From NCBI RefSeq assembly GCF_044647545.1, contig NZ_CP172818.1: a stretch of DNA of 64,000 bases; one strand, given 5' to 3'. The first letter of the stretch is position 1; every line of letters begins with the position of its first letter. This DNA is from Escherichia coli. GTDB taxonomy: Bacteria > Pseudomonadota > Gammaproteobacteria > Enterobacterales > Enterobacteriaceae. Positions 981 through 2,436 of the stretch are shown piece by piece. The notes under the pieces are model-generated. The model searched no databases, was not told the DNA's origin, and saw only the letters and a program-made list of their open reading frames with translations. The position numbers and the translations under genes are program-made.

Positions 981-1410
981 CTGAACAGGGCGCGGAGTAC
1001 CGCGCTCTGTTTAACGATACAGTATCTCTCCATAAGATAAAATATTGCTATATTCTGCTGGGTAATTCCCTGCTGATTTAGCATGTTATATCGCGTTATT
1101 TCGCTGCTTTCGAAATAACGCATCAATTTAATTTTCACACTTCCTACCAGAAATATACTCACGCTAACAATCATTATTCTGCTTAGTAAAAAATGTGTGA
1201 ATATTTTGCGCCAAAATGTGGCGCATGTTTCATTTTCGCACCATTGCGGGGCGCTGTTTTTATTATTTCCTGTCTACACTCAGCTTATTGCGACGCGAAA
1301 TCGTGCGCAAAAGCTGGCACTACTTTTGCTTATAAGAGGATGGCCACAGACAGGTAAAAGACGTTTCCCAAACGTCCTATAACGATAATTTTCGCCTCAC
1401 AGGAAGCATT

Positions 1411-2436
1411 ATGAAAAAGATGATGATAGCCACACTGGCTGCCGCCAGCGTGCTGCTTGCCGTTGCAAATCAGGCGCATGCTGGCGCGACGCTTGATGCC
1501 GTTCAGAAAAAAGGTTTTGTGCAATGCGGGATCAGTGATGGATTACCTGGGTTCTCTTATGCCGATGCTGACGGTAAGTTTTCAGGTATTGATGTAGATG
1601 TTTGTCGTGGTGTTGCGGCAGCTGTATTTGGTGACGACACGAAAGTGAAATATACCCCGCTCACTGCAAAAGAACGCTTCACGGCTTTACAGTCAGGGGA
1701 GGTGGATTTGCTCTCCCGTAATACGACCTGGACTTCATCTCGCGATGCCGGGATGGGAATGGCATTTACCGGCGTCACTTATTACGACGGCATTGGCTTC
1801 CTGACTCACGATAAAGCGGGACTAAAAAGCGCGAAAGAACTGGATGGCGCTACCGTCTGTATTCAGGCGGGTACTGATACCGAACTCAACGTTGCCGATT
1901 ACTTTAAGGCAAACAATATGAAGTACACACCAGTGACTTTCGATCGCTCTGACGAATCAGCGAAGGCACTGGAATCTGGTCGCTGCGATACGCTGGCCTC
2001 GGATCAATCACAACTGTATGCCCTGCGCATCAAATTAAGCAACCCGGCTGAATGGATTGTCTTACCGGAAGTTATCTCCAAAGAACCGCTTGGGCCGGTA
2101 GTTCGTCGTGGCGATGATGAATGGTTCTCGATTGTACGCTGGACGCTTTTCGCCATGCTGAATGCTGAAGAGATGGGCATCAATTCCCAGAACGTCGATG
2201 AAAAAGCGGCTAATCCGGCAACGCCTGATATGGCACATCTGCTGGGTAAAGAAGGCGATTACGGCAAGGATCTGAAGCTGGATAATAAATGGGCTTACAA
2301 CATCATCAAACAGGTGGGTAACTACTCGGAAATTTTTGAGCGTAACGTAGGTTCAGAAAGCCCGCTGAAAATTAAACGTGGGCAAAATAATCTCTGGAAT
2401 AACGGCGGAATTCAGTACGCGCCGCCCGTGCGTTAA
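1411..2436 (+). CDS. yhdW: amino-acid ABC transporter periplasmic substrate-binding protein
   Basis: 341 aa ORF with signal peptide, first gene of a four-gene ABC transporter cluster; intact here. Confidence 0.85.
   Translation: MKKMMIATLAAASVLLAVANQAHAGATLDAVQKKGFVQCGISDGLPGFSYADADGKFSGIDVDVCRGVAAAVFGDDTKVKYTPLTAKERFTALQSGEVDLLSRNTTWTSSRDAGMGMAFTGVTYYDGIGFLTHDKAGLKSAKELDGATVCIQAGTDTELNVADYFKANNMKYTPVTFDRSDESAKALESGRCDTLASDQSQLYALRIKLSNPAEWIVLPEVISKEPLGPVVRRGDDEWFSIVRWTLFAMLNAEEMGINSQNVDEKAANPATPDMAHLLGKEGDYGKDLKLDNKWAYNIIKQVGNYSEIFERNVGSESPLKIKRGQNNLWNNGGIQYAPPVR

What the first reader, a model, noticed from the sequence alone, without database searches (positions are those of the whole stretch)
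1195..1240. Perfect 7 bp inverted repeat upstream of yhdW, a candidate operator
TGCGCCA-AAATG-TGGCGCA (about 1208-1226) lies roughly 190 bp upstream of the yhdW start in an otherwise AT-rich 430 bp intergenic region. A perfect palindrome of this size is typical of a dimeric regulator site; no regulator is known to me for this operon.
Basis: seen in the sequence. Interest (0 to 1): 0.3.

Follow-up and report, generated by a model that had tools for sequence, protein, structure and literature searches.

The report
NtrC enhancer box upstream of yhdW
The palindrome is real, but it is most likely the outer of two binding boxes for the known nitrogen-starvation activator NtrC, which switches on the already described sigma-54 promoter of the yhdWXYZ amino-acid transporter operon, so it is ordinary and largely known.

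Summary
The window is E. coli, and the palindrome lies in the 430-bp yhdV-yhdW spacer.

A perfect 7-bp inverted repeat is only marginally unusual here. The context gives it meaning:
- About 100 bp downstream lies CTGGCACTACTTTTGCT (1314-1330), the published sigma-54 ChIP-seq site of yhdW.
- 30 bp downstream lies a second similar box, CGCACCATTGCGGGGCG (1237-1253).
- Each box matches the 17-bp NtrC consensus TGCACCAnnnTGGTGCA at 10 of 14 positions. They are the only such pair in 64 kb.
- Published NtrC ChIP-seq and expression data place yhdWXYZ in the NtrC regulon.

Across 80 Enterobacteriaceae loci, both boxes, their 30-bp spacing and the promoter are conserved. The box-to-promoter distance is 71-73 or 82-84 bp, one helical turn apart.

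The perfect palindrome itself occurs only in E. coli proper. Its outer right-arm bases are poorly conserved, and its arms are 2 bp further apart than a canonical NtrC site. No hairpin covariation and no ZraR box were found.

Verdict: a known type of enhancer site at a known NtrC/sigma-54 promoter. The exact binding register is unresolved. Low interest.

The parts
1207..1225 (.). It is the promoter-distal NtrC-like box ('site 1') read as a 19-bp dyad.
   Evidence: Searches give the sequence and arms. It matches NtrC half-sites at 12/14 when the spacer is widened by 2 bp. It is perfect only in E. coli proper, 3 of 81 loci.
1207..1223 (.). Site 1 read in the canonical 17-bp NtrC register: TGCGCCA-AAA-TGTGGCG. 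Centre 1215, about -126 from the inferred transcription start.
   Evidence: It matches TGCACCAnnnTGGTGCA at 10/14. The conserved columns TTTTGCkC (1204-1211) and TGTGGC (1217-1222) fall within this span across 80 loci.
1237..1253 (.). Site 2, the promoter-proximal NtrC-like box CGCACCA-TTG-CGGGGCG (19-bp reading 1237-1255). Centre 1245, about -96, and 30 bp from site 1.
   Evidence: 10/14 to the consensus. Many genera have a perfect TGCACCA left half. GCACC and G.GC are strongly conserved, and the spacing to site 1 is invariant.
1314..1330 (+). Sigma-54 promoter yhdWp, CTGGCACTACTTTTGCT. GG is at 1316-1317 and GC at 1328-1329.
   Evidence: Identical to published sigma-54 ChIP-seq site OS34 for yhdW. 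It was also recovered by RpoN holoenzyme gSELEX. TGGCA-N-TTGC is present in all 80 loci that retain upstream sequence.
1341..1341 (+). Inferred transcription start of yhdWp, about 70 nt before the ATG.
   Evidence: Inferred from the -12 GC position and from the value 70 listed for yhdW. Not mapped here.
1256..1290 (.). T-rich tract (1256-1268), the highly conserved block CCTGTCTACACTC (1269-1281) and the IHF-like ACTCAGCTTATTG (1278-1290), all lying between the boxes and the promoter. Role uncertain.
   Evidence: The block is conserved in all but 6 of the distinct upstream sequences. The IHF consensus match of 7/9 is not above chance.
1411..2436 (+). yhdW, the periplasmic binding protein of the YhdWXYZ amino-acid ABC transporter. 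It is the first gene served by the promoter and is intact in this strain.
   Evidence: 341-aa ORF. The annotation of the homologous K-12-like locus shows it frameshifted there.
984..1011 (+). Hairpin AACAGGGCGCGG/CCGCGCTCTGTT just after the yhdV stop, the likely yhdV terminator. It is listed to show that the palindrome is not needed for that role.
   Evidence: Inverted repeat I1. The yhdV ORF ends at 980.

Best explanation
The palindrome is the promoter-distal member of a pair of NtrC (GlnG) binding boxes. Together they form the upstream activating sequence (enhancer) of the sigma-54-dependent promoter yhdWp.

Under nitrogen limitation, phosphorylated NtrC dimers occupy the two boxes. Their centres lie about -126 and -96 from the start and 30 bp apart, so they sit on roughly the same face of the helix. 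The dimers assemble into the active oligomer. This contacts the sigma-54 holoenzyme bound in a closed complex at 1314-1330 by looping out the intervening DNA. ATP hydrolysis then drives open-complex formation and transcription of yhdWXYZ.

Shown in the literature: sigma-54 binds this promoter, NtrC is cross-linked at this locus in vivo, and expression depends on the Ntr system.

Shown here: the boxes' sequence similarity to the NtrC consensus, their conservation, their fixed spacing, and their helical phasing with the promoter.

Inferred: NtrC contacts exactly these bases, and in which register. The perfect symmetry seen in E. coli is probably incidental to a box with NtrC-like half-sites.
For: 1. 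The sigma-54 promoter CTGGCACTACTTTTGCT lies 101 bp (site 1) and 71 bp (site 2) downstream of the box centres. It is identical to the published sigma-54 ChIP-seq site for yhdW and was found by RpoN gSELEX.
2. NtrC ChIP-seq gives a 16-fold peak at yhdWXYZ in N-starved cells, and the operon is listed as Ntr-regulated by expression analysis. It also appears in an NtrC iModulon and among the sigma-54 promoters of RegulonDB.
3. That peak is called between the promoter and the start codon. The same is true of the glnA control, whose known sites lie about 140-170 bp further upstream. The yhdW boxes lie about 120-150 bp upstream of their peak.
4. Each box matches the consensus TGCACCAnnnTGGTGCA at 10/14. 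In glnAp2 the two strongest matches, at the expected positions of its high-affinity sites, score 13 and 12, and weaker matches score 8-9. No other 17-mer in the spacer scores 9 or more. The two boxes are the only core-matching pair 20-45 bp apart in 64 kb.
5. The 30-bp spacing compares with 32 bp in glnAp2.
6. Across 80 Enterobacteriaceae loci, both boxes align without gaps and are strongly conserved, while the DNA just upstream is unrelated.
7. The distance from site 2 to the -24 GG is 71-73 bp in 32 sequences and 82-84 bp in 49, never 74-81, although the intervening sequence is unrelated between genera. This phasing ties the boxes functionally to the promoter. The 82/112-114 class reproduces the glnAp2 geometry of 82 and 114.
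8. In E. coli the 64-bp block holding both boxes is identical in 4178 of 5355 genomes, whereas the whole spacer is mostly 95-99% identical.
Against: - No base-level footprint of NtrC at yhdW was found in the papers I could read.
- The NtrC-alone gSELEX list (cut-off 40%) does not include the yhdV/yhdX spacer. It also misses other accepted Ntr promoters.
- The boxes are only 10/14 in the canonical register. For site 1 the mean match across genera is better with a spacer 2 bp too long (9.8 against 8.9 of 14), a geometry not described for NtrC.
- A separate group reports regulation of yhdWXYZ by the ZraSR system.
- ChIP-seq resolution does not separate these boxes from the promoter.
Confidence: 0.78

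Rival explanations
1. The 19-bp perfect dyad is an operator for an as yet unidentified dimeric regulator that recognises TGCGCC-N7-GGCGCA. It would act independently of NtrC, for example as a repressor of yhdW or of a sigma-70-type promoter in the spacer.
For: The dyad is perfect in E. coli. In the 19-bp register site 1 shows more dyad symmetry across genera than in the 17-bp register, with a mode of 4-5 of 7 Watson-Crick positions against 2-4. Site 2 has the same 6-N7-6 layout. A conserved -10-like block, TCTACACT, lies downstream, so site 2 would sit near its -35 region.
Against: The half-sites are NtrC-like, and NtrC is found at this locus in vivo. Right-arm bases 1223-1224 are poorly conserved, and the dyad is perfect in only 3 of 81 loci. 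Phasing with the sigma-54 promoter is what an enhancer predicts, not what an independent operator predicts. No candidate regulator or second genomic copy was found: there is one match in 64 kb.
Confidence: 0.08
2. The boxes are the enhancer for ZraR, the sigma-54 activator of the ZraPSR envelope-stress system, which has been reported to regulate yhdWXYZ.
For: A 2026 preprint states that a 2018 study showed ZraSR regulation of the operon. ZraR belongs to the NtrC family and needs a sigma-54 promoter, which is present.
Against: The ZraR boxes in the zraP-zraS spacer are CGAGTAAAAATGACTCG and its inverted copy. The best match to their arms in the yhdW spacer is 6/10, which is background: 994 windows in 64 kb score at least that. 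ZraR gSELEX and ChIP-exo found essentially only zraP/zraSR.
Confidence: 0.05
3. The palindrome acts as an RNA hairpin. It would be an intrinsic terminator, either a back-up for yhdV or the terminator of a small transcript starting at the sigma-70-like site at 1132-1159.
For: The pattern scan flags 1207-1225 plus TGTTTCATTT as terminator-like, and finds a sigma-70-like site (TTTTCA-16-TATACT) at 1132-1159. There is a weak sub-threshold Rfam match to MicA at 1150-1229: 23.1 bits against a gathering score of 41, E = 0.33.
Against: There is no covariation. 80.1% of cells are paired, no better than shuffles (298 of 500 reach it). Only one cell has a double change, and the central pair is broken in 37 of 48 sequences. 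The folding z-score is -1.2. The T-run is interrupted. yhdV has its own hairpin at 984-1011. The DNA 5' of 1201 is hypervariable even within E. coli and unrelated in other genera, so there is no conserved transcript body.
Confidence: 0.04

Closest known systems
The glnAp2 enhancer of E. coli: NtrC sites 1 and 2 upstream of the sigma-54 promoter of glnALG
   Same: Two NtrC-type boxes sit about three helical turns apart (30 bp here, 32 bp there), roughly 70-115 bp upstream of a TGGCAC-N5-TTGC promoter. Most other genera show the same 82/112-114 bp geometry as glnAp2. Both loci are bound by NtrC in the same ChIP-seq experiment.
   Different: The glnAp2 boxes match the consensus at 13 and 12 of 14, while the yhdW boxes match at 10 of 14. 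The best-matching right halves at yhdW lie 2 bp too far out. The E. coli yhdW enhancer is one helical turn closer to the promoter. No upstream sigma-70 promoter (the glnAp1 equivalent) has been demonstrated.
Weak, cooperative NtrC enhancers of other Ntr transport operons (glnHp2, argT, hisJ, gltI, potF), from established knowledge of the Ntr regulon
   Same: A sigma-54 promoter of an amino-acid ABC transporter operon is induced on nitrogen limitation, has imperfect NtrC boxes, and may have an architectural element between enhancer and promoter.
   Different: I did not examine those promoters here. An IHF site at yhdW is not supported above chance.
ZraR boxes of the zraP-zraSR spacer
   Same: These are enhancer sites of an NtrC-family activator. 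They are dyads with an A/T-rich centre, and one centre reads AAAAATG, similar to AAAATG here.
   Different: The arm sequences are unrelated: CGAGT/ACTCG against GCGCC/GGCGC.

Membership tests
NtrC (GlnG) upstream activating site of a sigma-54 promoter | A -24/-12 (TGGCAC-N5-TTGC) promoter downstream that is bound by sigma-54 | tested here: met
   CTGGCACTACTTTTGCT at 1314-1330 is identical to published ChIP-seq site OS34. It is conserved in all 80 loci that retain upstream sequence.
NtrC (GlnG) upstream activating site of a sigma-54 promoter | A 17-bp dyad resembling TGCACCAnnnTGGTGCA | tested here: inconclusive
   Both boxes score 10/14 in the 17-bp register, between the top-scoring (12-13) and weaker (8-9) glnAp2 matches. 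Site 1 matches better (12/14) with a spacer 2 bp longer, and across genera the two registers score similarly.
NtrC (GlnG) upstream activating site of a sigma-54 promoter | Two or more sites on the same helix face, about three turns apart, about 70-150 bp upstream of the promoter | tested here: met
   The centres at 1215 and 1245 are 30 bp apart in every locus. They lie 101 and 71 bp from the -24 GG. The distance classes 71-73 and 82-84 bp differ by one turn.
NtrC (GlnG) upstream activating site of a sigma-54 promoter | Occupancy by NtrC in vivo and NtrC-dependent expression | not testable with these tools
   Literature only: a 16-fold NtrC ChIP-seq peak at yhdWXYZ and a citation of expression analysis, and an NtrC iModulon. 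The NtrC-alone gSELEX list lacks this spacer.
NtrC (GlnG) upstream activating site of a sigma-54 promoter | A direct footprint of NtrC on these bases | not testable with these tools
   No footprint or EMSA for yhdW was found in the held papers.
Intrinsic (Rho-independent) terminator | A G+C-rich hairpin directly followed by a U-run, at the end of a transcription unit, with the stem maintained in relatives | tested here: not met
   The pattern is flagged, but the stem is not maintained and shows no covariation. The fold is not better than shuffles. It lies 227 bp past the yhdV stop, and yhdV has its own hairpin.
ZraR enhancer box | Similarity to the CGAGT-N7-ACTCG boxes of the zraP-zraSR spacer | tested here: not met
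   The best match in the yhdW spacer is 6/10 arm positions, which is background level.
Classical operator of a dimeric repressor | A conserved dyad overlapping or immediately flanking the core promoter it controls | tested here: not met
   The dyad centre is about 126 bp upstream of the only documented start site. Perfect symmetry occurs in 3 of 81 loci. An overlapping sigma-70/sigma-S promoter is only conjectural.

The most novel reading that the evidence does not exclude
Two readings are not excluded.

1. The boxes may truly be used in the 6-N7-6 register, 2 bp wider than any described NtrC site. This register fits site 1 better in most genera. It would imply either an unusual NtrC binding mode or a different NtrC-family activator.

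2. The boxes may have a second, repressive role, as the NtrC sites do over glnAp1. The target would be a conserved but undocumented sigma-S/sigma-70-type promoter whose -10 would be the invariant TCTACACT block (1273-1280). Site 2 would sit at its -35 region.
Probability: 0.1. Interest if true: 0.4.

Novelty: already known. Interest (0 to 1): 0.15.

Why it matters
It matters little beyond annotation. The finding places a base-level candidate for the NtrC enhancer at a promoter already assigned to the Ntr regulon. It also shows that both the enhancer and its helical phasing are conserved across Enterobacteriaceae.

Practical value:
- The boxes give precise targets for mutagenesis, which suits groups now studying YhdWXYZ in antibiotic tolerance and gut colonisation.
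- They offer a way to settle whether NtrC or ZraR drives the operon.
- The 2-bp-wide dyad is a small natural test case for how tolerant NtrC is to half-site spacing.

Tried and rejected
- **RNA hairpin or terminator:** rejected on pair counts over 48 distinct orthologous sequences and on folding energy.
- **Known RNA family:** only a sub-threshold MicA match, E = 0.33.
- **ZraR box:** I fetched the zraP-zraS spacer, extracted its 20-nt inverted boxes and scanned the yhdW spacer. Only background-level matches appeared.
- **IHF site between the boxes and the promoter:** the best match is 7/9 to WATCAANNNNTTR, which is not above chance.
- **Conserved stem formed by TTGCG...CGCAA just upstream of -24:** RNAalifold gives only a 4-bp stem at -1.5 kcal/mol with few covariations. 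Left unexplained.
- **Small ORFs across the palindrome (1193-1357 and 1197-1382):** rejected. The start region is hypervariable within E. coli, and the region carries indels between genera whose lengths are not multiples of three.
- **Evolved-coculture mutations said to lie 'directly upstream of yhdW':** the ones I could retrieve lie inside the pseudogene, not in the boxes.
- **Primary descriptions of the Ntr regulon:** my attempts to read them (Zimmer 2000; Reitzer and Schneider 2001) failed because the papers are not held.

Full report
**Observation.** The window is E. coli: the spacer is 100% identical to strain FDAARGOS_497 and is present in 5376 of 5426 complete genomes. The layout is yhdV (759-980), a 430-bp spacer, then an intact yhdW (1411-2436) followed by yhdXYZ.

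On its own it is only marginally unusual. This dyad with up to 2 mismatches is expected 0.44 times per window. Perfect 7-bp inverted repeats with short loops occur about 1.1 times per kb and turn up in 20% of shuffled spacers. A G+C-rich one appears in 2.2% of shuffled spacers.

**Context.** About 100 bp downstream lies CTGGCACTACTTTTGCT (1314-1330). This exact 17-mer is the published sigma-54 ChIP-seq site assigned to yhdW. It was also recovered by RpoN holoenzyme gSELEX and is counted among RegulonDB's sigma-54 promoters. The inferred start is about 1341.

Sigma-54 promoters need an upstream activator. NtrC ChIP-seq in nitrogen-starved cells reports a 16-fold peak at yhdWXYZ and cites expression evidence that the operon is Ntr-regulated. 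Later work places it in an NtrC iModulon and calls it NtrC-regulated.

**The boxes.** The NtrC consensus is the 17-bp dyad TGCACCAnnnTGGTGCA. The glnA probe sequence confirms the two classic boxes, 32 bp apart. In the yhdW spacer only three 17-mers reach 9/14 or better. Those at 1207 (10/14) and 1209 (9/14) both lie inside the palindrome. The third, at 1237 (CGCACCATTGCGGGGCG, 10/14), lies 30 bp downstream.

This is the only pair of core-matching boxes 20-45 bp apart in the 64-kb window. For scale, the two strongest glnAp2 matches, at the expected positions of its high-affinity sites, score 13 and 12, and its weaker matches score 8-9. The box centres lie about -126 and -96 from the inferred start.

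**Conservation.** I retrieved 80 yhdW loci from Escherichia, Citrobacter, Enterobacter, Kosakonia, Trabulsiella, Cedecea, Atlantibacter and others. All 80 loci that retain upstream sequence keep the sigma-54 promoter. From site 1 through site 2 the sequences align without a single gap, whereas the DNA immediately upstream is unrelated.

The strongly conserved columns are:
- TTTTGCkC (1204-1211)
- TGTGGC (1217-1222)
- A1225
- GTT (1227-1229)
- TTTyGCACC (1234-1242)
- G.GC (1249-1252)

The perfect palindrome is not the conserved entity. The left arm is TGCTCY in most genera. G1223 and C1224 of the right arm vary; Citrobacter, for example, has GGCTTA. All seven positions are complementary in only 3 of 81 sequences, all E. 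coli proper. Within E. coli the 64-bp block with both boxes is identical in 4178 of 5355 genomes, although the spacer as a whole is mostly 95-99% identical. Conservation starts sharply at about 1201.

**Coupling to the promoter.** The distance from the site 2 centre to the -24 GG is 71-73 bp in 32 sequences and 82-84 bp in 49, and never 74-81. The sequence filling that interval is unrelated between genera. The two classes differ by one helical turn, and the longer class reproduces the glnAp2 geometry of 82 and 114 bp. An enhancer that must face the promoter predicts this. An independent operator or terminator does not. The caveat is that the two length classes may trace to few indel events. 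The tight ±1 bp range within each class, across unrelated filler sequences, is the stronger part of the argument.

**ChIP peak position.** The published peak (NC_000913.2 coordinates 3416981-3417061) maps to window 1328-1408, between the promoter and the ATG. In the same study the glnA peak also lies between promoter and ATG, about 140-170 bp from its known boxes. The yhdW boxes lie about 120-150 bp from their peak. The displacement is the same, so the peak is compatible with binding at the boxes. The resolution does not prove it.

**Unresolved register.** In E. coli the palindrome's two arms are each good NtrC half-sites, but they sit 2 bp too far apart: 12/14 with N5 between the heptamers instead of N3. 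Across genera, site 1 averages 9.8/14 in the wide register and 8.9/14 in the canonical one. Site 2 averages 9.6 and 9.8.

Column conservation points the other way. The best-conserved right-half bases (G.GC in site 2, TG..GC in site 1) coincide with the T, G and GC positions of the canonical 17-mer. The bases that only the wide register needs (1223-1224) are poorly conserved. I therefore favour canonical-register binding with a weak right half and regard the perfect E. coli symmetry as incidental. Computation cannot settle this.

**Rivals.**
- *RNA hairpin or terminator.* The scan flags the hairpin plus TGTTTCATTT. However, the stem is not maintained: the central pair is broken in 37 of 48 sequences, only one cell shows a compensatory change, and pairing is no better than shuffles. 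The folding z-score is -1.2, and yhdV has its own hairpin at 984-1011. A MicA-like Rfam match is far below threshold.
- *ZraR.* A 2026 preprint cites a 2018 study for ZraSR control of yhdWXYZ. The genuine ZraR boxes (CGAGTAAAAATGACTCG) have no counterpart in the yhdW spacer. ZraR gSELEX and ChIP-exo see essentially only zraP/zraSR.
- *Unknown dimeric regulator on the 19-bp dyad.* This cannot be excluded, but it has no positive support beyond the symmetry.

**Evidence against NtrC.** The NtrC-alone gSELEX list does not contain this spacer, though that list also misses other accepted Ntr promoters. I found no footprint or EMSA for yhdW in the held literature.

**Verdict.** It is wrong about novelty and probable mode: the regulator is the known activator NtrC acting from an enhancer, not an unknown protein acting at an operator. 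The feature belongs to a known NtrC/sigma-54 promoter. Interest is low. What remains open is the 2-bp spacing oddity and an unexplained, highly conserved block between enhancer and promoter.

Noticed in passing
window 1269-1281 (with T-rich tract 1256-1268): CCTGTCTACACTC is almost invariant across genera, more so than either NtrC-like box, and no explanation here accounts for it. It contains TCTACACT, which by my recollection resembles a sigma-S/sigma-70-type extended -10 (a lead, not a test). It also overlaps a weak IHF-like match (ACTCAGCTTATTG, 7/9, not above chance). It is absent in the Cedecea-like clade.
   Followed up: partly
window 1245-1316 and loci L002-L081: The distance between the proximal box and the -24 element is bimodal, 71-73 or 82-84 bp. 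The classes are one helical turn apart, there are no intermediates, and the filler sequence between them is unrelated across genera.
   Followed up: yes
window 1288-1311: The TTGCG...CGCAA flanks are kept across genera around a filler of variable length and sequence. Many individual sequences can form a hairpin and a few A-U/G-U covariations appear, but the consensus fold is only 4 bp at -1.5 kcal/mol. The right flank GCAAAAG is also complementary to CTTTTGC of the -12 element (inverted repeat 1307-1313/1323-1329).
   Followed up: partly
Its left arm is deleted in E. whittamii and in a divergent E. coli. Function unknown.
   Followed up: no
window 1190-1200: The 11 bases just 5' of the palindrome are hypervariable among E. 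coli strains (AAAATGTGTGA, ACACGCGTAA, AGGTGAATTA and others). Everything from 1201 to the yhdW ATG is nearly invariant, so the conservation boundary is sharp.
   Followed up: partly
window 1218 (locus L085, O157:H7): E. coli O157:H7 carries G-to-A at the position equivalent to 1218, inside the palindrome's spacer. That base is invariant in the 48 distinct orthologous sequences from other loci.
   Followed up: no
window 1355-1381: An inverted repeat, TAAAAGACGTTT / AAACGTCCTATA with a perfect core GACGTTT-ccc-AAACGTC, lies in the predicted 5' untranslated region of yhdW. It is invariant within Escherichia.
   Followed up: no
window 1411-2436 versus locus L001 3431-4455: yhdW is intact (341 aa) in this strain but is annotated as frameshifted in the K-12-like genome. 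A published coculture evolution experiment found small deletions inside the K-12 pseudogene at high frequency.
   Followed up: partly
window 1150-1229 (+): A sub-threshold Rfam match to the MicA sRNA (23.1 bits, gathering score 41, E = 0.33) ends at the palindrome. A sigma-70-like site (TTTTCA-16-TATACT) at 1132-1159 lies just before it. The region is not conserved outside E. coli.
   Followed up: partly
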